Source: a virus (lineage: Duplodnaviria > Caudoviricetes). Taken from it: 56,027 nucleotides of DNA. The notes under the pieces are model-generated. The model worked only from the letters and a program-made list of their open reading frames with translations. It did no database searches and was not told where the DNA came from. The stretch covers positions 1 through 56,027 of IMG/VR virus record IMGVR_UViG_3300037258_000287. One strand, given 5' to 3'. Positions 5,731 to 56,027 of this stretch are shown piece by piece; the first letter of the stretch is position 1; each line of letters starts with the position of its first letter. The translations under genes and the position numbers were made by a program.

Positions 5731-6600
5731 TTAGCGAGCCTGCCCCGTCTTTTCTGGCGATGCCTCCAGGATCGCTGACATAAGCGCTTGACGTTTGAGC
5801 GGCGGCATACCGGCAAGCCGGGCCTTCCACCGGGCCTTCATCTTTTTCATTTTCTCGCGCTCCCGGAAATTCTCCCCAAGATACCGGTAGTCGTGAAGTT
5901 CCACCGGCTTGGGATAGTTGTACCAGAGGCACTCCGTGGCGCGCTTGTTGCCCCGCGTCGTCACCTCGAATTGCAGCAAGTTCCAGCCCGGCAGGCCGTC
6001 GCGGTACATCTGGGAGTCGTAGCCCGAAATCATCACGCGAGCCTTCATCTTCCGGATGACTCGCAATAAATGGCGATGATCCCGATCGGGCATTTCATAT
6101 TCGTATAGCCGGCAGGTCCGCGTGCTCATCAAGTAGGGCGGGTCGCAGTAGACCAGCTCGGTTCCCCGGAAGTCGTAGGACTCCAGGAACTCGATGCCAT
6201 CGCCGCGCTTGATGGTGAGCGATCGCGGATCCAGCATCGCCGGAAATACCGGGCGCCGCCGGCGCGTATCCCCAGAAACGTCGATTCTGCCGGCGGCATC
6301 GCCGGAAATGGAGAGCGCGGCCGTAATCGCCGCGGATGGCGAGGCCACCAGGTTGGGACTCCATCCGTGCGAGATGCGGGAAAACGCCGCTGCAGGATCG
6401 ATCTTTCCGGCGAGTAGCGATCGCCATTCGTGGATTACCTCGGAAGACAGGTCGATGCCGATCGTCTTTTCGGCTGCGCGCTTCAACCGCAATATCGAGC
6501 CACTCCCCAGGAAGGGTTCGATGTAAATATCGTGCGGCGGCATGAGGTTGATTAGCCGCCAATAAGTACCGCACCAGCTCTTTCCGCCCGGATAAACCAT
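5731..6600 (-). CDS. DNA adenine methyltransferase (Dam/D12-like, alpha class) with internal insertion
   Basis: YPGGK, EPFLGSGS and DPPY motifs; about 65-aa low-complexity insert; basic C-terminal extension. Confidence 0.9.
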   Translation of the reverse strand: MVYPGGKSWCGTYWRLINLMPPHDIYIEPFLGSGSILRLKRAAEKTIGIDLSSEVIHEWRSLLAGKIDPAAAFSRISHGWSPNLVASPSAAITAALSISGDAAGRIDVSGDTRRRRPVFPAMLDPRSLTIKRGDGIEFLESYDFRGTELVYCDPPYLMSTRTCRLYEYEMPDRDHRHLLRVIRKMKARVMISGYDSQMYRDGLPGWNLLQFEVTTRGNKRATECLWYNYPKPVELHDYRYLGENFREREKMKKMKARWKARLAGMPPLKRQALMSAILEASPEKTGQAR

Positions 6601-26456: not shown

Positions 26457-26499
26457 CCGCCGGCCGTAAATGAAACGCTCATCCCGACTAAGGGAGCAG

Positions 26500-27150
26500 A
26501 TGGACAAGCAGCTCACCGCCGCAATCTACGCCCGCGTCTCGACCAAAGACAAAGGGCAGGACACCGAGAACCAACTCTCGCAGCTCCGGAAGTATGCCGC
26601 GAAACAGGAATGGGAGACCGTCGAGTTTATCGACCATGCCAGCGGAAAGCATGCGGACCGCGACGGCCTCACCAAACTCTTCGAAGCAGCGAGCCGGCGG
26701 GAGATCGATGTGGTGTTGGTTTGGGCTCTTGACCGTTTCACCCGGCAGGGCATCTTTGAGACGTTCGAACACATCGCCAAGCTCTCAAAGTATGGCGTGA
26801 GCTTCGAGAGTTTGACTGAGCCTCAGTTCCGGACCACCGGCGCCACTGGGGAGCTGATGCTGGCGATTGCAGCCTGGATCGCGAAGCAGGAACGCATCCG
26901 GATCAGCGAGCGCACCAAGGCCGGCCTGGCTACCGCACGGGCTAAGGGAAAGATTCTCGGCCGTCCGCGGATAGTGTTCCGCATCGACCTCGCCGAACAG
27001 ATGCGCGCCGCGGGCAAGAGTTGGCGGGCTATCTCTCGAGAACTCGGCATCCCCCACGCGACTATCCGGAAAGCACTTTCGGAGCGGAAAGCATCCCTAA
27101 AACCCGCGAAAAGGGGTGTGCAGAAAACCCCATCGAAACCCCGCCGCTAA
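26500..27150 (+). CDS. Small serine recombinase (resolvase/invertase)
   Basis: YARVST catalytic Ser, LDRFTR, ERIRISERTKAGL...G..LGRP, C-terminal HTH; alternative start 26470. Confidence 0.93.
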   Translation: MDKQLTAAIYARVSTKDKGQDTENQLSQLRKYAAKQEWETVEFIDHASGKHADRDGLTKLFEAASRREIDVVLVWALDRFTRQGIFETFEHIAKLSKYGVSFESLTEPQFRTTGATGELMLAIAAWIAKQERIRISERTKAGLATARAKGKILGRPRIVFRIDLAEQMRAAGKSWRAISRELGIPHATIRKALSERKASLKPAKRGVQKTPSKPRR

Positions 27151-28287: not shown

Positions 28288-29259
28288 ATGCAATTCGAGC
28301 AACTGCTGAGCGATTTTCAAGAGGCCTACATGCCGCGCCTGGCCGCGCCGACCCGAGCGAAGTACACCTCACTCATCCGGCAACACATCAGGCCCAAGTT
28401 CGCGGATATGGAAGTCGATGCCATCACCACCAAAGTGCTCGACATCTGGCTGAACAGTAAGAACGATCGGCTATCGTGGGCAGCCCGCGCCGACTTGCGC
28501 AACCTCATGTCGTCGATCTTCACCCGGGCGGAAAAGTACGGGACATGGGAAGGCAAGAATCCGGCGCGATATGCCAACCCCGGCCGGCGGGCGCCGAAAT
28601 ATGAGCACTGCAAGCTGACGGTAGAGCAGACGAAGACGCTACTCGCTCACCTGCCCGACGATGTCCGGCTCATCTGTATGGTGGCGCTGTTCTCCGGGCT
28701 GCGAATGAGTGAAGTGATGGGCTTGTGCTGGAAGCATGTGGACTTCTCGCGTGGCCTCTTTCTCATCCGGCAGCGCTACTGGCGCGGAGACATCGGACCC
28801 ACCAAGTCCGAGACATCGGCGCGCGATATTCCATTCGGCGACTTGCGGGAACTGCTGCTGGCGTTGAAACCCGAGGGCAACGTAGACGAGCGCTTCTGTT
28901 TCTCGGTCGAGACGCACGGTTTCGGAGCCGGCCGCGGCGGAGCTTACCGCGAGACCGGACAGACGCGCGATGATCGCTCAATTCACCAGCACTTCCTGCG
29001 TCCCGCGGCGGAAAAGCTGAACATTTATCGCAAAGGCTTTGGCTTTCATGCGTTCAGACGTGAAGCAATCACGGCCGTAGACGAAATATTGGGCTCAATT
29101 CAGGCAATGAAGTTCGCAGGGCACAGTAGTTTAAACGTCACCAGCCGCTACGGGCTCAAAGATCATGCCAAACAGGATCAGGCAGTTAGAAAACTCCAGA
29201 AACCGTATTCGTCTTTGCTTCGCCCTCGAACGAAAAATGTTACTACCAAGCCGAAGTGA
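28288..29259 (+). CDS. int: Tyrosine integrase
   Basis: SGLRMSE (R), TKS (K), HAFRR, GH and SRY catalytic residues; adjacent attP. Confidence 0.93.
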   Translation: MQFEQLLSDFQEAYMPRLAAPTRAKYTSLIRQHIRPKFADMEVDAITTKVLDIWLNSKNDRLSWAARADLRNLMSSIFTRAEKYGTWEGKNPARYANPGRRAPKYEHCKLTVEQTKTLLAHLPDDVRLICMVALFSGLRMSEVMGLCWKHVDFSRGLFLIRQRYWRGDIGPTKSETSARDIPFGDLRELLLALKPEGNVDERFCFSVETHGFGAGRGGAYRETGQTRDDRSIHQHFLRPAAEKLNIYRKGFGFHAFRREAITAVDEILGSIQAMKFAGHSSLNVTSRYGLKDHAKQDQAVRKLQKPYSSLLRPRTKNVTTKPK

Positions 29260-36381: not shown

Positions 36382-37011
36382 ATGAAAGCACAGGAAGTCT
36401 ACGAAGGGAGCGACGGCAAGGTGACGACACTGTACTATGCCCACCTTATCCAGCGCGGCGGGGAACTGGGAACCGTTGCGATGAATCTGTTTCGCGCGCA
36501 GAAGTGCAGCGCACGCGCGAAAGTCTACCGTGGCGGCATTCGTGGGCGCGGCTCATTCAAAAGCATGGCGTACGAGCGGAAGTCCTGGTCTATGGGGTTG
36601 CTGTGCGATGCGCTCGCCACAAACGCGGAAACGCTGGGCATCGCCTGGGGATGGAAAGAAGATCCTCACACGCCATTCGGCAACGAGCCCTCGTGGGTGC
36701 TGTACGTTGAGTTGCCCGAGGGCATGCCGGCCTACACCAAAGACGGGAATAAGATGTTCAGTAACACCCATTTCAAGACCGAAAACGAGGCGTGGAACTC
36801 GATCCTTCGCAGCGTCGAGGCCTTCATCAGCCTGTCCGCGTCTTCACTCATCAGGGCGCGGGCGGATCTACAAAAGGCCGAGAAATACGCGGCGGATGCC
36901 GTTGTCGAGTACATGACAGCAAAAAGGAATTACGAAAGGCGCATGGCTGAGCTGATCAACGGTCCTACCGCCCCGCCCCCAGCTCCCATGCCAACAGATC
37001 GTCAGGAGTAA
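36382..37011 (+). CDS. Hypothetical protein, possibly chimeric
   Basis: GGAG RBS; NLFRAQKCSARAKVYRGG...WGWKED...WVLYVELP domain. Confidence 0.6.
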   Translation: MKAQEVYEGSDGKVTTLYYAHLIQRGGELGTVAMNLFRAQKCSARAKVYRGGIRGRGSFKSMAYERKSWSMGLLCDALATNAETLGIAWGWKEDPHTPFGNEPSWVLYVELPEGMPAYTKDGNKMFSNTHFKTENEAWNSILRSVEAFISLSASSLIRARADLQKAEKYAADAVVEYMTAKRNYERRMAELINGPTAPPPAPMPTDRQE

Positions 37012-37198
37012 CCCGCAGCGCAAGGCAAAGCTGCACCATCAGCGCCACAGACAATCCCGGCGCTTGCCCTCCTTCAATGACGCCGATATAAGACCGGGCA
37101 ACTCCACACTCAGCAGCAAGCTTACGCTGCGTCATCTGCAGTTCTGCCCGGCGCATCACGATCCTGCGCCCCAAACGGTTGAGCACAGCTTGTCCCAT
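36965..37198 (-). CDS. XRE-family HTH regulator
   Basis: LGRRIVMRRAELQMTQRKLAAECGVARSYIGVIEGG...VTPDDLL. Confidence 0.85.
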   Translation of the reverse strand: MGQAVLNRLGRRIVMRRAELQMTQRKLAAECGVARSYIGVIEGGQAPGLSVALMVQLCLALRVTPDDLLAWELGAGR

Positions 37199-37284
37199 GA
37201 CTGACGGCCTCCCAGAGCGGTTAAATGCCATTGTCAGAGCGCAGCCCCTTGCGTTATTAGACTTGGCACACCACAATCGTATCA

Positions 37285-37803
37285 ATGCGGACCACTTCAG
37301 CGGTAATACGTAGTCAGATTGCCGTTCTTTTTGCCGATATTGTGCCTGCGATAGCCCGCAGCATAATGCGAAACCTTCCCAGGTCCTTCGAGCGGGAAGA
37401 TTTGGAGCAGGTGGGCAGGCTGGCGTTGCTCGAAGCCGCGCCGCGGATCGAAGCCTTTGCCCGGAAACGGGTCGAGGGAGCCATGCGGGATAGCGCACGG
37501 TTTCAGAGGTACCGGGAGACGCAGCACGCGAGCTTGTCCGGCTTAAAAAAACAGCCGTCTGTTTTAATAGACAGCCGGACACCCCTGGAAATTTTAATCG
37601 ACGATGAAAAGCAGGCCGGCCTGCAGGCCCACATCTGTTCGCTACCTGCGGACCAGGCGCGCGTCATCTCAGAGCGCATGTCAGGCCGCAAGAGGCAAAA
37701 GGGCAGACCATCCCGTGCCGAAGCAGCAGCTCGGGCGGCCGACATCGCGATAGAAGGCGAGGCTGTGGGTGCGCTGAGGGTTTTGCTGGCGCGGGCGGCA
37801 TAG
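37285..37803 (+). CDS. Degenerate sigma70-like factor (FliA-like region 2)
   Basis: IARSIMRNLPRSFEREDLEQVGRLALLEAA...FARKRVEGAMRD; region-4-like LPADQARVI. Confidence 0.65.
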   Translation: MRTTSAVIRSQIAVLFADIVPAIARSIMRNLPRSFEREDLEQVGRLALLEAAPRIEAFARKRVEGAMRDSARFQRYRETQHASLSGLKKQPSVLIDSRTPLEILIDDEKQAGLQAHICSLPADQARVISERMSGRKRQKGRPSRAEAAARAADIAIEGEAVGALRVLLARAA

Positions 37804-37805
37804 GC

Positions 37806-38207
37806 TTGCTACTCGTAGTCTGCATTGACATGGTCGACCCCACGCTAACCGGCATGGGGGATGGCAGAATCAAGGAATTTGAGGATCTTGCCGCTGATCT
37901 GAAACGGCGTCAGATGCCGCTGCCCGTACGATGCTCCGCGCGAGCCGATCTGCTGCTGAAGGCCGGGGAAGCTTGCATTGCCGGCGGCATTACCGGCCCG
38001 ATCCTCAGTTTGGGAGAGTTCAGATACCAATCTCTTCCAGCGGATCACAGACTACAGAGACTATCGGGGTACATCTGGCCCGGCGGCGACCCGTGCGAAC
38101 TCGTCGAGGACGCCGCGGTACCCGCCAACGTTCTCAGGTTCCAGCTCACCTGCATGCGAAATTGGGATCTGAAAAGCGTTGACCTGCAGAGACGAAGAAT
38201 GGGTTGA
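37806..38207 (+). CDS. Divergent stand-alone paralog of a capsid protein subdomain
   Basis: Ungapped alignment to MCP segment TMTPDG...RLASY, 14/77 identities by hand. Confidence 0.55.
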   Translation: MLLVVCIDMVDPTLTGMGDGRIKEFEDLAADLKRRQMPLPVRCSARADLLLKAGEACIAGGITGPILSLGEFRYQSLPADHRLQRLSGYIWPGGDPCELVEDAAVPANVLRFQLTCMRNWDLKSVDLQRRRMG

Positions 38208-38450
38208 TCGATGACTGTAATCATGTGGATCTGCGGAAAATGCCGCGTCACGAACACAGGCGAACGCTGCCCGAAATGCAGACTGTGACCGCAAAGGCGG
38301 GCTGATGATCCCGACGATTGAGGCGATGGACCCGGAGTTTGAAGCCGCGAAACAGAGGCTGCGAGAATACGTGAAGGCCTATCCCGATCAGGCCATGATC
38401 GCTATTTACGGCCTGTACCTCTAAACTGTATTTCGCGCGATAATCGCAGC

Positions 38451-38837
38451 ATGAACCGCCGCGCCTTCTTCGTTGCCACCCTATCCGCCATCTTTGGAAG
38501 GAAGCGTTTCACGGCGTGGCTCAGAACCCGCGGCGCCGACTACTATTCCATCCGGTGGCCTGTGCATGCCCGCAGTTGGGAATTTGGCGTCCATTGCCAA
38601 GAGGCGCTGAACCATTACATGCCGTTTTCGCAAGCCTTCCTGACGAACATTGCGATGCCAATCACCGAAGTGACTGAGGTGCGGATTGATGGCATGCGCC
38701 TCGAACCGGGCCAGTTTTCGGAATCACCCGGCAGGGTGCTCGCCTTTCCCGCGGCAGCAGCGTCGGACGATGTGAGCATCAGCTACAGCTACGGCCCGAT
38801 TCCCGCGGGTTACGGCAAGACGCCGCGCGCTGCATGA
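38451..38837 (+). CDS. Twin-arginine-leader chimera of capsid C-terminus and neck/tube-like segments
   Basis: MNRRAFF leader; 13/38 ungapped identities to MCP C-terminus; further matches to adaptor and tube. Confidence 0.75.
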   Translation: MNRRAFFVATLSAIFGRKRFTAWLRTRGADYYSIRWPVHARSWEFGVHCQEALNHYMPFSQAFLTNIAMPITEVTEVRIDGMRLEPGQFSESPGRVLAFPAAAASDDVSISYSYGPIPAGYGKTPRAA

Positions 38838-39034
38838 CCCGGCGCGGCTTCCTCACCCTACCCCTAGCGGCAAAGGCCCAACAGCAGGCAGACGCCGAAA
38901 AGATTGCCGAGATGGAGGCGGCACTTAAGTTCCTGTGGGACGGCTACCACGTGCAACCCACGGCCATCTACACCCCTGAAGGCCGCATCACCAAAGACGG
39001 TATCGATCCGTGGGGCACGTTTCCCGAGCCTTAA
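38834..39034 (+). CDS. Twin-arginine-leader mini-protein carrying a capsid helix
   Basis: MTRRGFL leader; 11/23 ungapped identities to MCP IVEWDAALKYFWDTYKTGIDRIY. Confidence 0.78.
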   Translation: MTRRGFLTLPLAAKAQQQADAEKIAEMEAALKFLWDGYHVQPTAIYTPEGRITKDGIDPWGTFPEP

Positions 39035-39055
39035 AAACGCGCGATAATCTCGGCT

Positions 39056-39406
39056 GTGCTCAAGGTTGGAAAGTGCGCAAAGTGTCACGGGCTGATGCCG
39101 CTCACGACCCATCACATCATTCCGCGGTCCAAAGGCGGGAAGGGCCTTCCGAATAATACCGTTCTGGTATGTCGCCCCTGCCACGACGAGCTAGATATCG
39201 AAGCTGGCGTGCGGCAGATCCGCAAGGGACCTAAGATGCCCGGCCTTCCTCGGCGGCGGATGCAGTGCCATTCCTGCAATAACACTATCCGAAAGGACGA
39301 ATGGCGAAATGGTCATAGGCTTTGCAGGCCGTGTCAGTGGAAGAAAGAGCGCGCAACATGGGACCGGCTCAAACAGATGCTCGTTGAGGCAGAAGAGCGG
39401 CTCTGA
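39056..39406 (+). CDS. HNH endonuclease
   Basis: CAKC...HHIIPRSKGG...N...VCRPCH plus a second Zn finger. Confidence 0.85.
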   Translation: MLKVGKCAKCHGLMPLTTHHIIPRSKGGKGLPNNTVLVCRPCHDELDIEAGVRQIRKGPKMPGLPRRRMQCHSCNNTIRKDEWRNGHRLCRPCQWKKERATWDRLKQMLVEAEERL

Positions 39407-39464: not shown

Positions 39465-40118
39465 GTGCGCGAGCCCGACGTCCCCGTAACCCTCGAAGAA
39501 AAACCGCCCTCCGACCCGCCATCTATCCCGCCCGAAACCTCCGAACACGAGCTGGCGCACACGGAAACCTCGATCACAGACTATGCCAGGCTCTGCGTCA
39601 AGGCGGCGCAAGATGACGGCTACAAGGAAATAGGTACGGTCCACAACGTATCTTTCTCCGAAGCCTACCAGCCAGTCCCCGAACCCTCACCGCCTGCCAA
39701 ACCCGCCGGGCCTCCGCTTCTCTCTCAAGAGGAATACGACGCCAAGCGCGCCGCGCGGAACGTCGAGCAACTCATCCGCAAAGAGCAAGCCCGTCTTACC
39801 CCTCTTGCCCGCCGCGCCTTCCTCTGCGCACTGCACGAAGCCTGCACAAAAGACATTGCATCGCTTGACGAATCGTACCGCCGGGCGCTGGCGAAGAAAG
39901 AAGAGCTGCTCGCCAAAGCCCGATCGGAAGCATCGCCGGAAAAGGTGAGTCCGGATCCGGATGCATCGCCGGAAACGGCGGGGCTGCAGTCTGCCGGCCT
40001 GCCCGCTATCGACGTGGATGAATCACTCGCGCCCGGCACAGTAGAGTTTCGCGGGCCACGCGGCGCAGGCAAGATCACCGACCTTGTGCCCATTCCACTT
40101 ACTGCGGAGGAACTGTGA
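39465..40118 (+). CDS. Hypothetical Pro-rich protein
   Basis: 217-aa ORF; contains two copies of the 18-bp palindrome. Confidence 0.55.
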   Translation: MREPDVPVTLEEKPPSDPPSIPPETSEHELAHTETSITDYARLCVKAAQDDGYKEIGTVHNVSFSEAYQPVPEPSPPAKPAGPPLLSQEEYDAKRAARNVEQLIRKEQARLTPLARRAFLCALHEACTKDIASLDESYRRALAKKEELLAKARSEASPEKVSPDPDASPETAGLQSAGLPAIDVDESLAPGTVEFRGPRGAGKITDLVPIPLTAEEL

Positions 40119-44808: not shown

Positions 44809-45444
44809 GTGGAATTTCTCTGGACCGCGCAGCGCGAGGAAGCTGCCCTGCTTGTCGCTCAAGACGAGCTTACCGACGAGCAGATTGCCAAGCGAGTGGG
44901 CGTCACCCGCAACGGCGCAGTAGCGCGATGGAAAGCTACCCCGGCATTCCGCGTCCGCGTCAATGAGCACGTACGGGAATGGGCGCAGAGGTTCCGCGAA
45001 GAGGGGCTATGCGTCAAAGAGCGGCGCGTCAGATCGCTCGTCGATGATTTCGCGGCCACTGAATTAATACTCTCCGAACGCGGTGAGCAGCTTGCGGACT
45101 TCGGGGGGGGATGCTCGACAGGCTTCATCTGCCGCGACTACAAGGGGAAAGACGCAACCCAGGAAGTCTTCTTCTTCGACGCTGCCCTAATGCGAGAGCG
45201 CCGGGCTATCCGGGAGCAGATTGCCCAGGAACTGGGCGACGTCGTCACCAAGCACGAACACACCGGCAAGAACGGTGCGCCGATCGACGTAACAGTAAAT
45301 GCCAGGGAGTTGCTCACTAGCCGAATCGCTAGCATCGCTGAGCGAAGAGGAACGGGACGAAGCGATATCCAGCCTGACGGACGAACAGGCGGCGAGGATT
45401 CTGTACGACTGGCGGGGGACGTTCGCCCGGCAGAACCAGCTTGA
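44809..45444 (+). CDS. terS: Terminase small subunit
   Basis: N-terminal HTH (LTDEQIAKRVGVTR...W); KHEHTGKNGAPI motif; overlaps terL by 146 bp. Confidence 0.8.
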   Translation: MEFLWTAQREEAALLVAQDELTDEQIAKRVGVTRNGAVARWKATPAFRVRVNEHVREWAQRFREEGLCVKERRVRSLVDDFAATELILSERGEQLADFGGGCSTGFICRDYKGKDATQEVFFFDAALMRERRAIREQIAQELGDVVTKHEHTGKNGAPIDVTVNARELLTSRIASIAERRGTGRSDIQPDGRTGGEDSVRLAGDVRPAEPA

Positions 45445-46636
45445 GCCTCCGGGAGACTGGCGCAACTGGCTGATTCTCGCGGGCCGAGGGTTCGGTAAAA
45501 CTCGCACCGGCGCCGAATTTGTTCGTGAGCAAGTAGAGCTACGTAAGGCCCGGCGAATCGCGTTCATCGGCCACACCGTAGCCGACGTCCGAAAAGTGAT
45601 GATCGAGGGGGAAAGCGGGCTGCTCGCCTGCTACCCCCCGGGAGAGGGTCCGGTCTACAAGCCTTCGGAACGATCGGTCGAGTGGTCAAACGGAGCAATC
45701 GGGACGACGTACTCGGGCGATTCTCCAGACCAGCTCCGTGGCCCGCAGCACGATCTCTACTGGTGCGACGAGCCTGCAAAGTTCGCCTATCTCCAGGACT
45801 GCTGGGATAACCTGCAGTTCGGCCTGAGACTGGGGAACGCTCCCCGCGGCGTCCTGACCACGACACCCAAGCCTCTGGCGCTCATTCGCCAGCTCGTGAG
45901 GGATCAGCCGGCCACGGTCGTTACCCGCGGCTCGACGTACGACAATGCGTCGAATCTGCCGGCGGCAACCTTAGCTGAGTTCCGCAAGAAATATGAGGGA
46001 ACGCGGCTCGGCAGGCAAGAGCTGTTTGCCGAGATTCTCGACGACGCTCCGGGCGCACTGTGGAAACGGCAATCGTTTGATGGCCACCGCGTCAAGGAAG
46101 CGCCGGAACTAACGCGAGTTGTGGTGGCGGTCGACCCGGCGGTTACCGACACCGAGCACTCGGACGAAAGCGGAATAGTGGCGGCCGGCCGCGGCATCGA
46201 TGGCCACGCGTACATCCTTGACGACTGGTCGCTTAGATCGTCGCCGGGCGAGTGGGCGAAAAAAGCGATCGAGCTTTACAAGCATCGCCGCGCCGATATC
46301 ATCATCGCCGAAGTGAACAAGGGCGGCGACTTGGTCATCTCGACCATTCGGGTGGTAGACCCTAACGCCCCGGTGCGGAAGACGCGGGCCACTCAGGGCA
46401 AAGTGCTGAGAGCTGAACCGGTCGCGGCTCTCTATGAGCAAGGCCGCGTGCACCACGTCGGGAACTTCGACGCTCTCGAAGATCAGATGTGCATGTTCAC
46501 TACGGGAGCATATGTGGGGCCGGGCTCTCCGGACCGCGCGGACGCTGCGGTATATGCGATTACGGATTTGATTTTGGACGCGCCTGGCGAGGGGCTACTC
46601 GAATACTACAGGCGCATGAACGAAAAGAAAGACTGA
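45299..46636 (+). CDS. terL: Terminase large subunit
   Basis: Walker A AGRGFGKT, Walker B YWCDE, TTTP motif, nuclease VAVDP...SPDRADA. Confidence 0.96.
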   Translation: MPGSCSLAESLASLSEEERDEAISSLTDEQAARILYDWRGTFARQNQLEPPGDWRNWLILAGRGFGKTRTGAEFVREQVELRKARRIAFIGHTVADVRKVMIEGESGLLACYPPGEGPVYKPSERSVEWSNGAIGTTYSGDSPDQLRGPQHDLYWCDEPAKFAYLQDCWDNLQFGLRLGNAPRGVLTTTPKPLALIRQLVRDQPATVVTRGSTYDNASNLPAATLAEFRKKYEGTRLGRQELFAEILDDAPGALWKRQSFDGHRVKEAPELTRVVVAVDPAVTDTEHSDESGIVAAGRGIDGHAYILDDWSLRSSPGEWAKKAIELYKHRRADIIIAEVNKGGDLVISTIRVVDPNAPVRKTRATQGKVLRAEPVAALYEQGRVHHVGNFDALEDQMCMFTTGAYVGPGSPDRADAAVYAITDLILDAPGEGLLEYYRRMNEKKD

Positions 46637-47699: not shown

Positions 47700-47795
47700 G
47701 CCGGCTGGCCAGCATCGACCGTTCAGGCGATATGCGCCGGCGTTCCCCGCTATTTCCGTCGATGCTGGATCCGCGATTCCCCGTTGCGTAGACCA

Positions 47796-49274
47796 ATGTT
47801 CGCCGATCTCCTACATAAAGCGCTCGCCCTTCCCTCTGGCGGCACGGAAAGTCCCATCGATCCGGGATCGGTGCAACTCCGGGTCGGGGCAACGGTCCGG
47901 GACTGGATTGCCAGCGTAAAGCCTGATGCCTGGTTTGGACCGAACCAGCCCTACCGTCCCGAAGCGCCGAAGTCGACACTCCCGCGAGTTTTCGATTATC
48001 CGTTCGGCGCCAACCTCTTTTATCAGCCCCGCAGCGAGCAGAAGGGGCCATCGTTCGAGCAGCTCCGAAACCTGTCGTACAACTACGACGTTCTCCGGTC
48101 TTGCATCGAGCGGCGTAAGCAGCCCATCCTCGCTCGCGAGCTGATCTTCAAGGTAAAGAAGAAGCCGGGCGAAAAGAAACGCGATTTCCGGGAGCGGTCG
48201 GACAACGATCCGCGCGTCGCGTACCTGACGGAGTTCTTCAAGTCGCCGGACAGAGAGCACGATTTTCAGGCGTGGCTCTGGATGGTTCTCGAAGAGTTGC
48301 TGGTCACCGACGCGCTGGCAATCTGGCCAGTCCGCGTGCAAGGCCAGGTGCAGGCTCTAAAGCTGATCGACGGAGCCACGATCAAGCCTTTGCACACGAC
48401 GGAAGGTTGGCGCCCTGTTCCTCCGGACCCCGCTTATCAACAGATCGTCAAGGGCATGCCGGCTCTCGACATGACGACGGACCAGCTCCTCTACATGCCG
48501 AGGAACTGCAGGGTAAACCGGTTCTATGGCTACCCGCCGGTAGAGCAGTTGATCATCACCACGAACACGGCGATCAACCGGCAAATTTCCCAACTGTGCT
48601 GGTACACCGAGGGCAACGTCCCCGAAGCGCTGGTGCAAGTGCCGGACACCTGGACTCCCGACCAGATTGAGCGCATGCAGACGCAGTTCGACGGCATGCT
48701 CGCCGGCAACCTCGCCGCAAAGCGCCGCATCACATTCGTGCCCGGGGGCGGCAAGGTCGACTTCGTTCGAGAGAAAGTCCTCACCGGCGATACGGACGTC
48801 TGGCTATCGCGCATCACCTGCGCCATTCTCGGAGTCAGCCCGCAGCCCTTCACCGAGCGCATGAACCGCGCGACGGGCGAACAGGCGGCGGCAACCGAGA
48901 CAGAGAAAGCGGACGCCCCCACGCTCAAGTGGATCAGGAATCGTATCACTGCGATTGTCCAGGGGCCGATGGGCTTCAAGGATATCGAGGCAGCATGGGA
49001 CTCGGACGAAGACTCCGACCGTCTCAAGCAGGCGCAGATCGAAGATATCCAGATCCGTAACGGATCGCGCTCGGTAGACGAATCGCGGGAAGACGATGGG
49101 CTCGACGCTGCAGGAATCGGGCCGTACTACGCAACAGCTACCGGGCCGATCTTCTTTTCAGATATCGACGCCGGCCGGCAGGCAGGCCTGCAGAATTCCC
49201 AGCTCCAGCCGGGCAACCAGCGCCAATTACCGGCGCCACAGAAACAAGACGAGGAAGAGGAAGTTACCGCATGA
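47796..49274 (+). CDS. Portal protein
   Basis: LIDGATIKP, AYQQIVKG, YGYPPVEQ, YTEGNVP motifs; position. Confidence 0.92.
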   Translation: MFADLLHKALALPSGGTESPIDPGSVQLRVGATVRDWIASVKPDAWFGPNQPYRPEAPKSTLPRVFDYPFGANLFYQPRSEQKGPSFEQLRNLSYNYDVLRSCIERRKQPILARELIFKVKKKPGEKKRDFRERSDNDPRVAYLTEFFKSPDREHDFQAWLWMVLEELLVTDALAIWPVRVQGQVQALKLIDGATIKPLHTTEGWRPVPPDPAYQQIVKGMPALDMTTDQLLYMPRNCRVNRFYGYPPVEQLIITTNTAINRQISQLCWYTEGNVPEALVQVPDTWTPDQIERMQTQFDGMLAGNLAAKRRITFVPGGGKVDFVREKVLTGDTDVWLSRITCAILGVSPQPFTERMNRATGEQAAATETEKADAPTLKWIRNRITAIVQGPMGFKDIEAAWDSDEDSDRLKQAQIEDIQIRNGSRSVDESREDDGLDAAGIGPYYATATGPIFFSDIDAGRQAGLQNSQLQPGNQRQLPAPQKQDEEEEVTA

Positions 49275-49837: not shown

Positions 49838-51754
49838 ATGGCAAAGTTCAAACGATTCGCCCCTATCACGAAGGTCGACGCCGAAAAGCGCGAAGTGTGG
49901 GGCATCCTCGCCGAAGAAGCGGTCGATAAATCGAATGAGATTTTCGACTACGACAAATCGAAGCCCTACTTTCAGAAGTGGAACGGTGAGTTTCAAAAGC
50001 TGACCTGTCAGCTTGATGAGCCGAGCCTCGGTAACCTGCGCGAGATGCACGGCAAGACGGCGGCCGGCAAGTTCACCGCCATGCAGTACGACGATACGGA
50101 CAAATGCATCAGCGTCTGCGCAAAGGTCGTCGACGATGCCGCATGGAAGAAGGTAGCCGAGGGCGTCTACACCGGATTCTCGATCGGTGGCGACTACGTC
50201 GAAACGTTTGCGGACCCGGTCATCAAAGGAGCCAAGCGCTACGTCGCCAACCCTCGCGAAGGGTCACTCGTCGACAATCCGTGCATGTACGGCGCAACCT
50301 TTGAAGTCAGGAAGGCGGACGGCGAGACCGAACTGCGGAAGTTCGTCGGGACCGATCAACTCGCCAAGCTCACCGCCCAGGTGTCCCGTCTGCAGAAGAC
50401 TGTCGAGGGCGCGCTACGGAAAGACGCCAAGACCAAGAAAGTCGCCGGGCACGATCTCCCGGCCAGCGCCTTCCTTATTGTCGGAGACCCGGATAAAACG
50501 GACACCTGGAATCTGCCCGTCGACTTCCCAACCGAGGAAGAATCGAAATCGCACGTGCAGAACGCCATGGCGCGGTTCAACCAGACCGAAGGGCACTCTC
50601 CGGAGGTTGCCAAAAAGCTCATCGCGCACGCCAAGAAACTCGGCATCGACTGCTCGAACTTCGCCGAAGAGTACGTGAAGGCAGCGTTCCCGAACGCCCT
50701 AGCGAAACGCGCAGCCGAGAACAAACTACAGAAAAGCATGTGGGACGTCGGACGCCTCGCGGACGCCCTCTGCACGCTGGCCTGGATGGAGCAGGGTCTC
50801 TCGGACGAAGCGGTCTACGAAGACGACGATTCACCCATTCCCGCCAAGCTCCGCGAACTGCTGCTTCCTCTCCGCCAGATCCTGCTCGACCTGGTCGCAG
50901 AAGAATCGGCCGAGTTGCTGCGTATCGAGGAAGCCAAAGCGGAAGCCGGCAAAGCGGCCGGCGCCGACCAAACCCTAAACAAACGAAAGGAGGTGGTCCC
51001 AATGACCACTCAATCACTTCAGAAGAGCCTGGAAGCAGGCACAGCAACGCCCGAGGAAGTCAAAAAAGCTGCCTCCCTGATCAAGAAACAAGCCTCCCAC
51101 ATCGAAAAGCTCGAAAAGGCCCATGAGAAGATGTCCGACGCCCACGACAAGATGGGCGAGCACATCGAGGGCATGAAAGACTGCATGGGCATGTCGAAAG
51201 CCGCGGACGGCGACCACATGAAGGGCCACATGCAGGGTCTCGCCAAGAACCATGTGACCCTCGGCGACTCGATGGACGACGCGGCCGGTTACCTCGAAGA
51301 CATGAAGGAAGAAGCCGAGAGCGTCGACGACCAGGGCACGCAAGGTCCGGCAAAGTTCGCCGTGGCGCGCCTCGAAAAGCGGCTGAAGCGCGAACACGCA
51401 CGGGAAATCGCGAAGCTCCAGGAAGGGCAGAACGATCTCACTAAACTGCTCACCAAGTTCATCGAGGTGCAGACTGGAATCGCCGATCCTCCCGCCCGCA
51501 CGCCGGCGCGCACCGCCGTAACGGTCGAGAAGACGGCGGACGGAGGCACCGGTGTCGGCGCCATCATTACACCCGGCGCTGGAGCCCCCGCGGCGGCTGC
51601 TGCTACCGAGCTAAATAAGTTCGTCGACGCGTCCGGCATGCCGAATCCCGACTTTGTCGACACCCCCGAAGCCCGCGGCACAGCCTTCGCCAAGGCAGCG
51701 AAAGCGATCCCGATGGAACGTGGGAACCCCTTCCCCAGCAACAAGGCCGCCTAG
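49838..51754 (+). CDS. Prohead protease fused to scaffold
   Basis: GNLREMH, GVYTGFSIGG, EGSLVDNP motifs; coiled-coil C-terminus; internal start at 51002. Confidence 0.85.
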   Translation: MAKFKRFAPITKVDAEKREVWGILAEEAVDKSNEIFDYDKSKPYFQKWNGEFQKLTCQLDEPSLGNLREMHGKTAAGKFTAMQYDDTDKCISVCAKVVDDAAWKKVAEGVYTGFSIGGDYVETFADPVIKGAKRYVANPREGSLVDNPCMYGATFEVRKADGETELRKFVGTDQLAKLTAQVSRLQKTVEGALRKDAKTKKVAGHDLPASAFLIVGDPDKTDTWNLPVDFPTEEESKSHVQNAMARFNQTEGHSPEVAKKLIAHAKKLGIDCSNFAEEYVKAAFPNALAKRAAENKLQKSMWDVGRLADALCTLAWMEQGLSDEAVYEDDDSPIPAKLRELLLPLRQILLDLVAEESAELLRIEEAKAEAGKAAGADQTLNKRKEVVPMTTQSLQKSLEAGTATPEEVKKAASLIKKQASHIEKLEKAHEKMSDAHDKMGEHIEGMKDCMGMSKAADGDHMKGHMQGLAKNHVTLGDSMDDAAGYLEDMKEEAESVDDQGTQGPAKFAVARLEKRLKREHAREIAKLQEGQNDLTKLLTKFIEVQTGIADPPARTPARTAVTVEKTADGGTGVGAIITPGAGAPAAAAATELNKFVDASGMPNPDFVDTPEARGTAFAKAAKAIPMERGNPFPSNKAA

Positions 51755-51831: not shown

Positions 51832-51865
51832 ATTGGCCGCGGCAAACCAGGAGAACACCACCCCC

Positions 51866-53350
51866 ATGCACGATCTCATTCAGCAAACACTCGAACGCCT
51901 CAACCAGGTGACTGGGCTTGCCAAGGCCGGTATCACCACCGGAACCGGGCTGGTCTACTACGACCTCGAAGCCGAGGCCAAACGTCAGTACCCTGTCATC
52001 GCCCCCATCCGGAAACGCATGCCGCGTATCGGAAAAAAGGAGGCCGGACAAGGCCTCGCGGTCCACTGGAACTACATCTCAAACCCCAACACTCAGGGCG
52101 TCCTCGCTATGGTTGGGCAGGGGCAGCGCGGCGGCCAGATCACTCCCACGGTGGTCTCGAAGCTCGCAACCTACGTAGGGATCGGCCTCGAAAACGTGGT
52201 GACGTGGGAAGCCGAGTACGCAGGCGAAGGGTACGACGACATTCGCGCCCAGGCGCAGCGCATGACGCTCGACTCGCTCATCCTCGCCGAAGAGCCGCAG
52301 CTCCTGTGGGGCAACGCCTCTCTTTCCTTTGGCACTACCCCGACCCCGGCCGGCACGCAAGCCACGGTGACCGGCGGATCACTCGCGAACGGAACCTATT
52401 ACCTCTATTGCGTGGCGCTCACCCTGCAGGGCTACAATTACGCGCTGCTACAGAGCCCCGTCGCAGTCGTCCCCGTCGTGACCCGCACCAACGCGGGCGT
52501 CAATTCCACCACCACCATCAACGGAGGAGTGGCGCAGATCTCCGCGGCATCGACCGGAGTCACCACCACCGGCTCGAACAACGCCATCAACGCGACCGTT
52601 ACGGCCGTCAAAGGCGCGGCCGGCTATGCCTGGTTCGTCGGATCTTCCGCCGGCGCCGGCAATGCCTTCCTGTACGCCGTCACCAGCCTGAACCTCGTGA
52701 CTATCCTCTCGCAGCCCGTCACCGGCCAGCTCGCAAACTACGCAGGGTCGACCACCGACTACAGCGCCAACCCGCTGGCCTTCGATGGCCTCGTCACTCA
52801 GCTCTGCGAAGCGAATGGCTATTTCAATTCGCTGAACGGCGCGACCATGACGCCCGATGGCGCAAACGGCATCGTCGAGTGGGACGCAGCTCTCAAGTAT
52901 TTCTGGGACACCTACAAGACCGGCATCGACCGCATTTATTGCGGCTCCCAGATCATCCGCGACGCGACTCGCGCCGTAGCCACCGGCTCGGGCAATGCGG
53001 CCATGCGCATCAACCTGCAGAACGACACCGATTCGCTCGGCAATCTGACCGGCTCCATGCGGCTTGCGTCGTACACCAACAAATTCGCTTACAACGGCGC
53101 GATGGATATTCCGATCGAAATCCATCCGAACATGCCGGACGGGCACGTTTTCTTCGATCTCGAGAAAAACCCCTATCCGACCGCCGATATCCCGCTCGCC
53201 CGCGCCGTCCGGACCCGCCGCGATTACTTCATGGTGGTGTGGCCGATCGTCGATCGCACCTGGCAGAACGGGTGCTACGCCGACGAAGTGCTGCAGGTCT
53301 ACGTGCCGTACGGCATGGGCCTGATCTCTAACATCGGACCCGGCATCTAA
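51866..53350 (+). CDS. Major capsid protein with internal beta-sandwich insertion
   Basis: AGGAG RBS; YYDLEAEAK..YPV..PIRKRMPRI, EEPQLLWGN and FDGL motifs; position after scaffold. Confidence 0.9.
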   Translation: MHDLIQQTLERLNQVTGLAKAGITTGTGLVYYDLEAEAKRQYPVIAPIRKRMPRIGKKEAGQGLAVHWNYISNPNTQGVLAMVGQGQRGGQITPTVVSKLATYVGIGLENVVTWEAEYAGEGYDDIRAQAQRMTLDSLILAEEPQLLWGNASLSFGTTPTPAGTQATVTGGSLANGTYYLYCVALTLQGYNYALLQSPVAVVPVVTRTNAGVNSTTTINGGVAQISAASTGVTTTGSNNAINATVTAVKGAAGYAWFVGSSAGAGNAFLYAVTSLNLVTILSQPVTGQLANYAGSTTDYSANPLAFDGLVTQLCEANGYFNSLNGATMTPDGANGIVEWDAALKYFWDTYKTGIDRIYCGSQIIRDATRAVATGSGNAAMRINLQNDTDSLGNLTGSMRLASYTNKFAYNGAMDIPIEIHPNMPDGHVFFDLEKNPYPTADIPLARAVRTRRDYFMVVWPIVDRTWQNGCYADEVLQVYVPYGMGLISNIGPGI

Positions 53351-53497: not shown

Positions 53498-54418
53498 ATG
53501 GCCTCTCCTGTCATCGCGAACTTTACGCCTGCTTCCGCCGTTGCAGGCGGAGCGGGCTTTACCCTGACAATAAACGGGCAGAATTTTGACAGTGCAGCGG
53601 CGGTGTACTGGGGTTCAACCGCCCTTACAACGACCTTCGTAAATTCGGGGCAGCTCACCGCGGCAGTCACTTCCGGACTCATCGCCAATCCCGGCGTGGT
53701 GCAGCTCACGGTGCTGTCTCTCGGGATCGTTTCCGGAACTGGGGGCGCGCCCTCCATCTTCGCTATTCCCTCGCCTCCGAACGCGATAGACCTTGCAACG
53801 CTCTCTCAGGTGAAGGGCTACCTGTACACGGTCCAGGGGACACCGGCGGATGACTACGTTTTACAGTGGCTCACCACGTCGGCAAGCCAGTATCTGCTGA
53901 GCCAGACGCACCGGGCGTCGCTGAACTCGGTTTCGACGCAGACCGAGCCCTACAACGGCACCGGACAGCCTCAGATCACAACCCGCGAGTTTCCCATCAC
54001 CGCGGTGCAGTCGGTAGTGATCAACGGATATAGCGTGCCGGCGACCCCGACGACAGGGCCGCAAGCATACTTGCAACCCGGCTGGGCGATCGGCTTGAAT
54101 GGCACCAGCATCGTGCTATCGAGCGGCGGCACTGGATCCTGGTACCCCGGCTATGGCGTGCCCTCGGTATTCCCGCGGGGCATCCTGAACGTGGTCATCA
54201 GCTATTCGGCGGGCTACGACGGGATTCCCTTCGATATCAACGAAGCCTGCGTGCAGTTGATTGGGCAGAACTACAAACGCCGCGGGTGGATCGACGAAGC
54301 ATCACGGGCGTTCGCAGCCGGCGGCGGCCAGACCACCTATCGCAACTGGGACGCGCCAACACAAGTCCGCAAGGTGATCAACGATTACTCGCGACGCTGG
54401 GGCGCGGGTGGCGCGTAG
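53498..54418 (+). CDS. Head-tail adaptor with N-terminal IPT/TIG domain
   Basis: PVIANFTPASAVAGGAGFTLTINGQNF...TTFVNSGQLTA, then DLATLSQVKGYL...ISYSAGYDGIPFDINEAC. Confidence 0.82.
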   Translation: MASPVIANFTPASAVAGGAGFTLTINGQNFDSAAAVYWGSTALTTTFVNSGQLTAAVTSGLIANPGVVQLTVLSLGIVSGTGGAPSIFAIPSPPNAIDLATLSQVKGYLYTVQGTPADDYVLQWLTTSASQYLLSQTHRASLNSVSTQTEPYNGTGQPQITTREFPITAVQSVVINGYSVPATPTTGPQAYLQPGWAIGLNGTSIVLSSGGTGSWYPGYGVPSVFPRGILNVVISYSAGYDGIPFDINEACVQLIGQNYKRRGWIDEASRAFAAGGGQTTYRNWDAPTQVRKVINDYSRRWGAGGA

Positions 54419-55542: not shown

Positions 55543-56027
55543 ATGGCCGCACCCACCACCGGCGGAACGCCCTATATTCAATTCGGCAGCGCGCTGCTGT
55601 ACCTCAATCCGAACGGGGGAAACCTCGCGACGAACCCGACCCCGACCAAACCCTACACGATCCAGAATTTCGAGGTCGACCAGTCGGGAGACCTGAAGGA
55701 CCTGCGCGGGCAGAGCCAGTATCCCGACGACACGGCCCGCTCCGACATCAAGTCCAGCTTCAAATTCTCTATCGGACGCACGGATTACTTCCTCCTGAAC
55801 CAGAACGTGTGGGCGGACACCACTGTGTCAGGGGGCACCTCAATTTCTCCCAACGAGGCGCACACTGTGCCTGCGTCTTCGGTCTATACCGTCACGATCA
55901 CGCCTCCTGCTTCCGGCGTCTTTGTCGCTGACCTCGGGGTAACGTACGCGGGCCTCGGAGACCTCGAAAAGGTGAATAGCGTGACGGCCGCCGGGCAGTA
56001 TAGCGTCAACGCCTCAACCGGCGTCTA
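55543..56027 (+). CDS. Tail tube protein, 5' part (continues at 1..440)
   Basis: AGGAG RBS; IQFGSALLY...DLKDLRGQSQYPDD; open to window end. Confidence 0.8.
   Translation, partial: MAAPTTGGTPYIQFGSALLYLNPNGGNLATNPTPTKPYTIQNFEVDQSGDLKDLRGQSQYPDDTARSDIKSSFKFSIGRTDYFLLNQNVWADTTVSGGTSISPNEAHTVPASSVYTVTITPPASGVFVADLGVTYAGLGDLEKVNSVTAAGQYSVNASTGV

What the first reader, a model, noticed from the sequence alone, without database searches (positions are those of the whole stretch)
37806..39034. Cluster of three capsid-derived mini-genes: candidate virion-protein decoy or assembly-interference system
Seen: three neighbouring accessory ORFs about 13 kb from the capsid gene each align without gaps to part of the C-terminal third of this phage's MCP. 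Two start with twin-arginine leaders. They lie downstream of a divergent XRE/sigma-like pair. All are far diverged from the MCP yet remain open and keep its aromatic/Pro/Gly positions, which argues against recent duplication debris. Established: some bacterial defences are triggered by capsid proteins (CapRelSJ46, Lit), and satellites and prophages can block rival virion assembly. Inference: these genes are decoys for capsid sensors, dominant-negative inhibitors of related phages, or exported mimics. I know of no described system with this layout.
Basis: partly seen in the sequence, partly recalled or inferred. Interest (0 to 1): 0.92.

Follow-up and report, generated by a model that had tools for sequence, protein, structure and literature searches.

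The report
Capsid-fragment mini-genes with twin-arginine leaders
Two small neighbouring genes of a temperate soil phage are each built from a short piece of a capsid-protein gene joined to an export-like leader; this is a rare, real curiosity whose function has not been tested.

Summary
Partly confirmed. The window is a complete temperate phage genome. Its major capsid protein (MCP) gene is at 51833-53350.

- **ORF2 (38451-38837):** residues 29-68 are homologous to the last ~43 residues of the MCP family (HMM E 1e-15 to 1e-16, hhalign 3e-15).
- **ORF3 (38834-39034):** residues 19-47 match MCP 342-370 (hhalign 2.8e-6).
- **ORF1:** not established (window-wide E 4.5).
- **Leaders:** ORF2 and ORF3 are the only 2 of 1937 ORFs in the window that start with RR-x-F-[FL]. 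They overlap by ATGA and look coding.
- **Origin:** ORF2's capsid piece is closer to foreign MCPs (22/40) than to the resident one (13/40). It is followed by a stretch weakly like the head-tail adaptor. This points to captured foreign head-gene DNA.
- **Rarity:** the searches found one homologue, P0004, which keeps leader, capsid motif and adaptor-like motif (E 5e-18).

No evidence bears on a decoy or assembly-interference function. My reading is exapted capsid-gene fragments forming small leader-bearing accessory proteins. Neutral debris and a capsid mimic remain open.

The parts
36965..37228 (-). XRE-type repressor-like gene. The ORF is open up to 37582. The likely start gives about 88 aa (my reading of the translation).
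   Evidence: HTH_31 E 8.7e-7, HTH_3 E 1.2e-6 and phrog_4 repressor E 1e-7. It is divergent from the + strand genes.
37285..37803 (+). First + strand gene after the switch, with only weak likeness to sigma-70 region 2.
   Evidence: Sigma70_r2 E 0.0071, 16.6 bits against a cut-off of 24. phrog_32691 E 0.049.
37806..38207 (+). ORF1, 133 aa, TTG start. Only residues 8-31 (37827-37898) weakly resemble MCP about 333-356. Its coding status is uncertain.
   Evidence: rank 5 of 1694 pieces, E 4.5. There is no self-hit among called proteins of 73-233 aa. Codon log-odds is 0.024, between the coding and off-frame values. The Atlas recognition value is low.
38211..38424 (+). The gap between ORF1 and ORF2 holds two mini-ORFs: 38211-38288 (25 aa, CxxC...CxxC) and 38305-38424 (39 aa).
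   Evidence: Read from the sequence. Only sub-threshold hits. The 39-aa ORF has coding-like codon use (0.357).
38434..38445 (+). First copy of the exact 12-nt direct repeat CGCGCGATAATC, 5 nt before ORF2's ATG.
   Evidence: It occurs exactly twice in the window. With its twin at 39038 it brackets ORF2 plus ORF3.
38451..38837 (+). ORF2, 128 aa (P0002).
- Leader: residues 1-17 (38451-38501).
- MCP C-terminal block: residues 29-68 (38535-38654).
- Adaptor-like stretch: residues 63-97 (38637-38741).
   Evidence: Searches support the MCP block. One search supports the adaptor-like stretch: 5.5 bits, 0 of 2000 shuffles, rank 2 in the window, E 1.4. One search gives the homologue P0004. GC3 is 0.72 and codon log-odds 0.141.
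38834..39034 (+). ORF3, 66 aa (P0028). Its ATG overlaps ORF2's TGA (ATGA).
- Leader: residues 1-16 (38834-38881).
- MCP 342-370-like helix plus strand: residues 19-47 (38888-38974).
   Evidence: GC3 is 0.73 and codon log-odds 0.299. It is present as a called protein in the collection.
39038..39049 (+). Second copy of the 12-nt repeat, 6 nt before the HNH gene's GTG.
39056..39406 (+). HNH endonuclease gene directly after ORF3.
   Evidence: PF01844 E 3.9e-9 and phrog_7370 E 2.2e-11.
51833..53350 (+). Resident major capsid protein gene (P0001, 505 aa), the reference for the fragments.
   Evidence: phrog_13692 E 1e-93. It lies between the protease/scaffold gene and the adaptor gene. Relatives in Arthrobacter phages Sonali and Mufasa8 are annotated 'major capsid protein' (96% coverage, E 1e-10). 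The top Foldseek hits are HK97-type capsids but none is significant.
53498..54418 (+). Head-tail adaptor gene with an N-terminal IPT/TIG domain. It is the gene after the MCP gene and the reference for ORF2's second stretch.
   Evidence: phrog_442 E 3.5e-16. TIG E 2.2e-10. BLASTP of ORF2 against it gives E 0.007.

Best explanation
ORF2 and ORF3 are a translationally coupled pair of small accessory genes. They lie in the region next to the immunity switch of a temperate soil phage.

**What each one is (shown).** Each is a chimera.
- A short N-terminal twin-arginine plus hydrophobic leader comes first.
- A piece descended from a capsid gene of this MCP family follows.
- In ORF2 that piece is the last ~43 residues, the best-conserved block of the family. 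A stretch resembling the middle of the head-tail adaptor, the gene that follows the capsid gene, comes after it.
- In ORF3 the piece is the helix plus strand at MCP 342-370.

**Where the pieces came from (inferred).**
- They were captured from another phage's head module by illegitimate recombination.
- They were trimmed by deletions; one in-frame deletion could have joined the capsid 3' end to the adaptor.
- They were then exapted.

**What they do (inferred).**
- ORF2 is under selection as a protein, because a distant homologue keeps the same three parts.
- The leader sends or tethers the proteins to the cell envelope. It looks more like a signal peptide than a membrane anchor.
- There they most likely serve an accessory role such as superinfection exclusion.
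- The capsid-derived block acts as a small folded or binding element rather than taking part in capsid assembly.

ORF1 is probably not part of this.
For: **Capsid ancestry.** (statistics in the observation check).

**Foreign origin.**
- ORF2's 40 aligned columns are identical to other MCPs at 20-22 of 40, but to the resident MCP at only 13 of 40.
- tblastn gives 46.7% identity to Brevundimonas phage MCPs against 36% to the resident MCP.
- No DNA repeat links the cluster to the MCP gene among the 13 direct-repeat families found.

**Adaptor-like stretch.**
- ORF2 63-97 matches adaptor HMM 97-131: 0 of 2000 shuffles, best non-self piece of 1694, E 1.4.
- P0004 hits the same HMM positions, reached by 3 of 2000 shuffles.
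- The best non-self phmmer hit of ORF2 69-128 is an adaptor in L011.
- As a lead only, the Atlas's own low-confidence model has 'head completion protein' clusters as nearest structures (TM 0.56).

**Selection.**
- P0004 (110 aa) aligns over 109 residues at E 5e-18, with leader, capsid motif and adaptor-like motif all kept.
- ORF2 and P0004 agree at 7 of 12 MCP-conserved columns against 5 of 28 variable ones (Fisher one-sided p 0.016).

**Leaders.**
- 2 of 1937 ORFs in the window carry the motif, and they are exactly these two.
- ORF2 is the only RR-plus-hydrophobic ORF that is not antisense inside a larger gene.

**Coding look.**
- GC3 is 0.72 and 0.73.
- Codon log-odds are 0.141 and 0.299. 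In-frame windows give 0.25 +/- 0.1 and the off-frame maximum is -0.01.
- The two ORFs overlap by ATGA.
- Both were called as genes.

**Context.**
- The phage has an integrase, an XRE repressor and an HNH gene.
- The role of prophage accessory genes beside the immunity region is from my own knowledge.
Against: - The family has only two known members among the collections searched. ORF3 and ORF1 have none. Selection therefore rests on a single pair.
- P0004 comes from a database of called proteins, so broken copies would not have been seen.
- The Tat profile models did not match (PF10518 and TIGR01409: no rows at E up to 10).
- The hydrophobic cores are short: 12 residues in ORF2 and 9 in ORF3. 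ORF2 lacks an AxA site.
- The adaptor likeness is weak (5.5 bits) and was not reproduced by Foldseek on my own low-confidence model.
- Structure models of ORF2 and the MCP are poor (pLDDT 57.8 and 51.6).
- No promoter or terminator consensus sets the pair apart.
- There are no expression data.
Confidence: 0.45

Rival explanations
1. Neutral debris. The ORFs are decaying leftovers of foreign head-module DNA that landed in a non-essential region. They are open by chance or only recently, may be transcribed with the early operon, and have no function of their own.
For: - The ORFs are near-orphans: ORF1 and ORF3 have no homologue, and ORF2 has one.
- The fragments are short (29-43 residues) and not collinear: MCP 459-503 lies upstream of MCP 342-370.
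- ORF1 was not found as a called protein.
- None of 36 related metagenome loci and neither Brevundimonas phage hit shows such fragments. All 36 matches are ordinary MCP C-termini. Polewnik has a single MCP match.
- Folds are of low confidence.
Against: - P0004 keeps an open frame and all three parts at 31-34% identity.
- Agreement is enriched at MCP-conserved columns (p 0.016).
- Both ORF2 and ORF3 carry the same rare leader motif (2 of 1937).
- The ATGA overlap and coding-like codon use also argue against decay.
Confidence: 0.3
2. Cytoplasmic capsid mimic. The proteins present the conserved capsid block in one of two ways. They soak up a host sensor that detects capsid protein, or they poison capsid assembly of related rival phages. 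This would resemble the gag-derived restriction factors of mammals.
For: - ORF2 carries the most conserved block of the family and keeps 10 of 12 conserved columns.
- The block resembles rival-lineage MCPs more than the resident MCP, whose own C-terminus is atypical (22/40 against 13/40). A poison that spares its owner would look like this.
- Capsid proteins are known triggers of several defence systems (passages of PMC13728456 seen).
- Gag-derived factors that block related viruses exist in mammals (passages of PMC6361761 seen).
Against: - The leader is the best-conserved part of ORF2 and P0004. It argues for export or membrane targeting, whereas sensing and assembly are cytoplasmic.
- The fragments cover under 10% of the capsid protein.
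- There is no hit to known defence families.
- No such phage-encoded capsid-fragment decoy turned up in my four literature searches.
Confidence: 0.15
3. Homing-endonuclease baggage. This concerns origin only and does not exclude the other readings. The HNH gene once sat beside a capsid gene in another phage and carried flanking capsid and adaptor pieces with it when it moved to this site.
For: - An HNH gene follows ORF3 directly.
- One related contig (L009) has a GIY-YIG endonuclease immediately after its MCP gene.
- Homing endonuclease genes often sit near capsid genes: 31% of T5orf172 neighbourhoods (passages of PMC10448857 seen).
- An exact 12-nt repeat brackets ORF2 plus ORF3 and precedes the HNH start.
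Against: - The window's HNH has no homologue in any of the 36 related MCP loci or in viral contigs.
- The order of the pieces does not fit simple flanks.
- P0004 shows that the ORF2 architecture is old. Its contig could not be read, so it is unknown whether an endonuclease lies beside it.
Confidence: 0.12

Closest known systems
Major capsid protein family phrog_13692. Relatives are annotated as MCP in Arthrobacter phages Sonali and Mufasa8, and occur in Brevundimonas phages Polewnik and Strzyga.
   Same: ORF2 29-68 and ORF3 19-47 are homologous to two short blocks of this family.
   Different: They cover 43 and 29 of about 505 residues. They carry foreign N-terminal leaders and other tails. 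They lie 13 kb from the head module, so they cannot form a capsid fold.
Twin-arginine (Tat) signal peptides
   Same: N-terminal RR-x-F-[FL] followed by a hydrophobic stretch. ORF2 has basic residues after the core, and ORF3 has an A-K-A motif (sequence).
   Different: The leaders are very short, with 12- and 9-residue cores. The profile models PF10518 and TIGR01409 do not match. Export is untested and the host is unknown.
Capsid- or gag-derived restriction factors of mammals (Fv1, sheep enJSRV Gag), as described in PMC6361761 (passages)
   Same: A partial capsid-type gene from a lineage other than the target, kept by a resident genome. Conceptually this is the nearest precedent for a capsid-fragment antiviral.
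   Different: Those factors retain most of Gag, act in the cytoplasm, and have shown activity. Here the fragments are tiny, carry leaders, sit in a phage, and have no shown activity.
Prophage superinfection-exclusion and moron genes near the immunity region. P22 SieA and the Ltp lipoprotein appear in the listings. Their general placement is recalled.
   Same: Small envelope-targeted accessory proteins of temperate phages, often orphans, encoded beside the repressor region.
   Different: There is no sequence relation. None is known to me to be made from capsid-gene pieces, and exclusion is untested here.
Homing-endonuclease neighbourhoods and 'HEG islands' (PMC10448857; abstract and passages)
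   Same: An HNH gene lies beside sequences of capsid-gene origin.
   Different: In HEG islands the endonucleases flank intact, near-identical essential genes. Here they flank diverged fragments at an ectopic site, and the HNH has no relative beside MCP genes.

Membership tests
MCP family (phrog_13692) | Significant profile match to the family | tested here: met
   ORF2: E 1.2e-15 to 1.4e-16 window-wide, hhalign 3.1e-15. ORF3: E 8.5e-4 to 1.9e-3 window-wide, hhalign 2.8e-6.
MCP family (phrog_13692) | The same match for ORF1 | tested here: inconclusive
   0 of 2000 shuffles with the 30-sequence HMM, but 60 of 1000 with the 10-sequence HMM. Rank 5 of 1694, E 4.5.
MCP family (phrog_13692) | Coverage of the whole capsid fold (about 500 residues) | tested here: not met
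   Matches span HMM 477-515 (ORF2) and 353-381 (ORF3) only. These are fragments, not members.
Tat signal peptide | Twin-arginine consensus (RR-x-F-L/F) near the N-terminus, followed by a hydrophobic core | tested here: met
   MNRRAFFVATLSAIFG in ORF2 and MTRRGFLTLPLAA in ORF3. These are 2 of 1937 ORFs in the window. ORF3's core falls below my hydrophobicity filter.
Tat signal peptide | Match to the curated profile models (PF10518, TIGR01409) | tested here: not met
   No row for ORF2, ORF3 or P0004 at E up to 10. HMMER's filters may drop such short, weak matches.
Tat signal peptide | Tat-dependent export and cleavage | not testable with these tools
   No signal-peptide predictor or experiment was available, and the host is unknown.
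Head-tail adaptor (phrog_442) | Profile match of ORF2's C-terminal half | tested here: inconclusive
   5.5 bits, 0 of 2000 shuffles, rank 2 of 1694 but E 1.4. P0004 hits the same positions, reached by 3 of 2000 shuffles. BLASTP against the resident adaptor gives E 0.007. Foldseek on my model found nothing.
Known anti-phage defence families (PADLOC-DB) | Profile match | tested here: not met
   0 families for ORF1, ORF2 and ORF3 at E up to 0.1.
Capsid-sensor decoy or dominant-negative capsid fragment | Binds a capsid sensor or capsid protein and changes the outcome of infection | not testable with these tools
   Needs expression and plating or pull-down assays.
Homing-endonuclease cassette with carried flanks | Relatives of the same endonuclease sit beside the MCP gene in related phages | tested here: not met
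   0 of 36 related loci hold a homologue of the window's HNH. 1 of 36 (L009) has an unrelated GIY-YIG gene after its MCP gene.

The most novel reading that the evidence does not exclude
ORF2 and ORF3 are a phage-encoded capsid-mimic weapon. They would be mini-proteins exapted from a rival lineage's capsid and adaptor genes, more like rival capsids than like the owner's diverged capsid. They would block related superinfecting phages or blunt a capsid-sensing host defence. The twin-arginine leader would either localise them or drag a bound partner to the Tat machinery. This would be a bacterial-virus counterpart of gag-derived restriction factors.
Probability: 0.12. Interest if true: 0.85.

Novelty: new variant of a known kind. 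Interest (0 to 1): 0.42.

Why it matters
- **If functional.** The pair would show that phages can recycle small pieces of structural genes into leader-bearing accessory proteins. This is a route of gene birth that is rarely documented.
- **If it acts through capsid mimicry.** It would add a new kind of player to phage-phage and phage-defence conflicts, which currently centre on capsid sensing.
- **If it is debris.** It still gives a clean example of foreign head-gene fragments lodged in the early region of a temperate phage, and shows how such fragments can look like genes.

The motif pair (RR leader plus the capsid C-terminal block) is a simple search key for finding more members.

Tried and rejected
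**Searches for more homologues**
- ORF2 in viral contigs gave one locus (L002), a tail-fibre protein sharing a short GPIPAGYG stretch. I judged it chance.
- P0004 was not found in viral contigs or metagenome contigs.
- The neighbouring genes 37285-37803 and 39465-40118, ORF3 and the HNH gene have no relatives in viral contigs.
- The ORF2+P0004 alignment found nothing in genome contigs or viral contigs.
- ORF3 against phages gave only a chance-level hit (E 0.8), and ORF1 gave none.

**Structure and binding**
- PDB sequence searches with the MCP gave nothing useful.
- The MCP model was poor (pLDDT 51.6). Foldseek on it found no significant match: 0 at E <= 0.001 among 225 listed, with HK97-type capsids among the top rows at E 0.04-1.
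- The ORF2 model was poor (pLDDT 57.8). Foldseek against BFVD found 0 at E <= 0.001 among 30.
- Complex prediction of MCP with ORF2 returned 'no answer' (score 0.00). This is no evidence either way.
- The Atlas search for ORF1 gave a low recognition value and unrelated clusters.

**Expression and natural variants**
- The look-up of sequencing runs listed no RNA holder, which says nothing about expression.
- Laid contigs showed no natural variant lacking the cassette.

**Ideas rejected**
- *Silent cassettes that donate variant sequence to the capsid gene by gene conversion.* There is no DNA-level similarity to the MCP gene, and protein identity is only 33-41%.
- *An invertase- or shufflon-type swap of the capsid C-terminus.* The fragments are 13 kb away and in direct orientation.
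- *A recent duplication of the resident MCP gene.* argues against it.
- *ORF2's leader as a diverged MCP or adaptor segment.* I found no support beyond a weak BLAST alignment.
- *The 12-nt repeat as a general promoter motif.* It has only two exact copies, and the count with up to 2 mismatches is at chance (9 found against 9.9 expected).

**Limits**
- I did not use the look-up of encoding contigs, which was stated closed. P0004's 2,847-nt contig therefore could not be read.
- I did not ask for supplements of papers. They might list capsid-adjacent endonuclease cases relevant to the origin rival.
Full report
**What the window is.** The window is a complete virus record of 56,027 bases with a 127-base terminal repeat.
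- The phage is temperate. It has a tyrosine integrase at 28288-29259, a serine resolvase/invertase at 26470-27150 and an XRE repressor on the minus strand at 36965-37228.
- The packaging and head module is the large terminase (45299-46636), portal (47784-49274), a 638-aa protease/scaffold-like protein (49838-51754), a 505-aa protein (51833-53350) and a head-tail adaptor (53498-54418).
- The 505-aa protein matches phrog_13692 at E 1e-93. Pfam and PDB sequence searches say nothing about it.
- I take it as the major capsid protein for two reasons. The first is its position in the module. The second is that full-length relatives in Arthrobacter phages Sonali and Mufasa8 are annotated as major capsid protein (96% coverage, E 1e-10).
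- My structure model was poor (pLDDT 51.6). Foldseek gave no significant match, although HK97-type capsids head the list.

**The observation: ORF2.**
- Residues 24-68 align to MCP 459-502 (BLASTP E 5e-10).
- The same block hits phrog_13692 (E 3.5e-8) and a 10-sequence MCP alignment by hhalign (E 3.1e-15).
- I translated the window in six frames into 1694 stop-to-stop pieces and scanned them with an MCP profile. The ORF2 piece is the best non-self hit, at E 1.4e-16 with the 10-sequence profile and 1.2e-15 with a 30-sequence profile.

**The observation: ORF3.** Residues 19-47 align to MCP 342-370 (BLASTP E 5e-5; hhalign E 2.8e-6). ORF3 is the next best piece (E 0.0019 and 8.5e-4). No shuffle of either ORF reached its score, in 1000 and in 2000 trials.

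**The observation: background.** An all-against-all comparison of 535 pieces against the 1694 shows the MCP-ORF2 pair as one of very few intragenomic matches.

**ORF1.**
- BLASTP finds nothing.
- hhalign gives E 0.027 with probability 1.8.
- The 10-sequence profile is matched by 60 of 1000 shuffles.
- With the 30-sequence profile, residues 8-31 hit the MCP stretch just before and overlapping the one ORF3 matches. No shuffle of 2000 reaches that score.
- In the six-frame scan it is only fifth of 1694, at E 4.5.
- The best gapless segment is reached by 2 of 300 shuffles.
- Its best phmmer hits among the fetched loci are MCPs at the corresponding place, at E 0.05-7.
- The other 102 residues show nothing.
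- ORF1 also has no self-hit among called proteins of 73-233 aa. Its codon use is intermediate.
- I treat it as possibly a more decayed piece of the same capsid gene, but not established.

**The leaders.** ORF2 starts MNRRAFF and ORF3 starts MTRRGFL.
- Of 1937 start-codon ORFs of 40 aa or more in six frames, exactly these two begin with RR-x-F-[FLIV] within the first residues. In the related loci the rate is 7 of 9384.
- With a hydrophobicity filter, ORF2 is the only hit that is not antisense inside a larger gene. ORF3's core is too short to pass.
- The curated Tat models did not match.
- The cores are short, at 12 and 9 residues, which fits a signal peptide better than a membrane span. Whether they are exported cannot be told here.

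**Origin.**
- ORF2's 40 aligned columns are identical to other MCP lineages at 20-22 positions, but to the resident MCP at only 13. tblastn gives 46.7% identity to the Brevundimonas phage MCPs.
- No DNA repeat links the cluster to the capsid gene.
- The piece is therefore not a copy of the resident gene. ORF3 gives no such contrast: 12 of 29 both to the resident MCP and to a foreign one.
- After the capsid block, ORF2 63-97 weakly matches the middle of the head-tail adaptor family. The score is 5.5 bits with 0 of 2000 shuffles. It is the best non-self piece in the window, but at E 1.4.
- P0004 hits the same profile positions.
- The adaptor is the gene that follows the capsid gene. A single in-frame deletion in captured capsid-adaptor DNA would therefore produce this layout. 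This step is inference.
- The Atlas's own low-confidence model of ORF2 has 'head completion protein' clusters as nearest structures (TM 0.56). My own model did not reproduce this.

**Rarity.**
- The exhaustive representative search returned 25 non-self hits. By their coordinates, and by the 12 sequences I read, 24 are capsid proteins or contig-cut capsid C-termini. One, P0004 (110 aa, a singleton from a 2,847-nt contig), is a true ORF2 homologue.
- Near-length searches with ORF2 and with the ORF2+P0004 profile found only these two.
- A metagenome scan with the pair's motifs gave 36 loci. All 36 are ordinary capsid genes.
- Genome contigs and viral contigs gave nothing.

**Conservation.**
- P0004 aligns over 109 residues at E 5e-18, with leader, capsid motif and adaptor-like motif all kept.
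- ORF2 and P0004 agree at 7 of 12 MCP-conserved columns against 5 of 28 variable ones (p 0.016).
- This is modest evidence that capsid-type constraints persist. Independent borrowing from capsid genes could mimic it.

**Gene-likeness and reality.**
- GC at codon positions and codon log-odds are coding-like for ORF2 (0.141) and ORF3 (0.299). In-frame windows give 0.25 +/- 0.1 and the off-frame maximum is about -0.01.
- The ORF3 ATG overlaps the ORF2 stop.
- An exact 12-nt repeat, found only twice in the window, sits 5-6 nt before the ORF2 and HNH starts and brackets the pair.
- Another assembler's contig is identical across the region. A second soil study holds identical short contigs, including one across the ORF2 start.

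**How it most likely works.**
- *Shown:* two coupled small ORFs with a shared rare leader motif and capsid-derived blocks, one of them conserved in a second sequence.
- *Inferred:* capture of foreign head-module DNA, trimming and exaptation; targeting to the envelope by the leader; and an accessory role there. Superinfection exclusion is my best guess, from the position beside the immunity switch.
- I put this reading at 0.45.
- Neutral debris stands at 0.30. The family is tiny, and ORF1 and ORF3 are orphans.
The greater likeness to rival capsids is suggestive, but the conserved leader argues against a cytoplasmic role.
- An origin as homing-endonuclease baggage is possible (0.12) and does not exclude the others. 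One relative, L009, has a GIY-YIG gene right after its capsid gene. However, the window's HNH has no relative in the 36 loci.

**Comparison and novelty.**
- The ORFs are fragments of the capsid family, not members of it.
- They meet the Tat motif but not the Tat profile models.
- They match no known defence family.
- Four literature searches and the passages I read turned up no phage gene made of a capsid fragment behind a twin-arginine leader.
- The nearest concept is gag-derived restriction in mammals (PMC6361761, passages).
- I rate the finding a new variant of a known kind, namely phage accessory orphans born from recycled gene pieces. Interest is moderate because function is wholly untested.

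**Limits.**
- The host is unknown.
- No expression data exist.
- Both structure models are poor.
- One homologue carries the whole selection argument, and its contig could not be read.

Noticed in passing
window 38434-38445 and 39038-39049: The exact 12-nt direct repeat CGCGCGATAATC occurs only twice in the window. It lies 5-6 nt before the starts of ORF2 and the HNH gene, and brackets ORF2 plus ORF3 (604 nt apart). It could be an insertion scar, a duplicated upstream region or a regulatory site.
   Followed up: partly
window 26470-27150; 5731-6600 (-); 6222-6289 and 47710-47777: A serine resolvase/invertase gene (Resolvase E 9.5e-40) is present. A 68-nt inverted repeat (84% complementary) has one arm inside a lone minus-strand ORF among + strand tail genes and the other just before the portal gene. 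Short protein-level matches link 6.1-6.6 kb with 47.3-48.1 kb. Whether a segment inverts was not examined.
   Followed up: no
window 38211-38288 and 38305-38424: There are two mini-ORFs between ORF1 and ORF2. One is a 25-aa CxxC...CxxC zinc-ribbon-like peptide. The other is a 39-aa ORF with strongly coding-like codon use (0.357). Both have only sub-threshold family hits.
   Followed up: partly
L009 862-1521: In a related metagenome contig, a GIY-YIG-type endonuclease gene lies about 70 nt after the capsid gene's stop.
   Followed up: partly
L005 6405-8372, L015 6330-8375, L025 2025-4040: Some relatives' capsid reading frames run about 80 residues past the family's usual C-terminus. The profile ends at residue 572 of 656, 597 of 682 and 591 of 672. 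P0014 shows a similar tail.
   Followed up: no
window 53498-54418: The head-tail adaptor carries an N-terminal IPT/TIG (Ig-like) domain (E 2.2e-10) that most relatives' adaptors lack.
   Followed up: no
window 1-127 and 55901-56027: A 127-nt identical terminal repeat is present, and the ORF at the right end continues at the left end. The record is a circularly closed or terminally redundant complete genome.
   Followed up: yes
window 51833-53350, residues 459-503: The resident capsid protein's C-terminal block departs from the family consensus. In the alignment ORF2 matches other MCP lineages at 20-22 of 40 columns but the resident MCP at only 13.
   Followed up: partly
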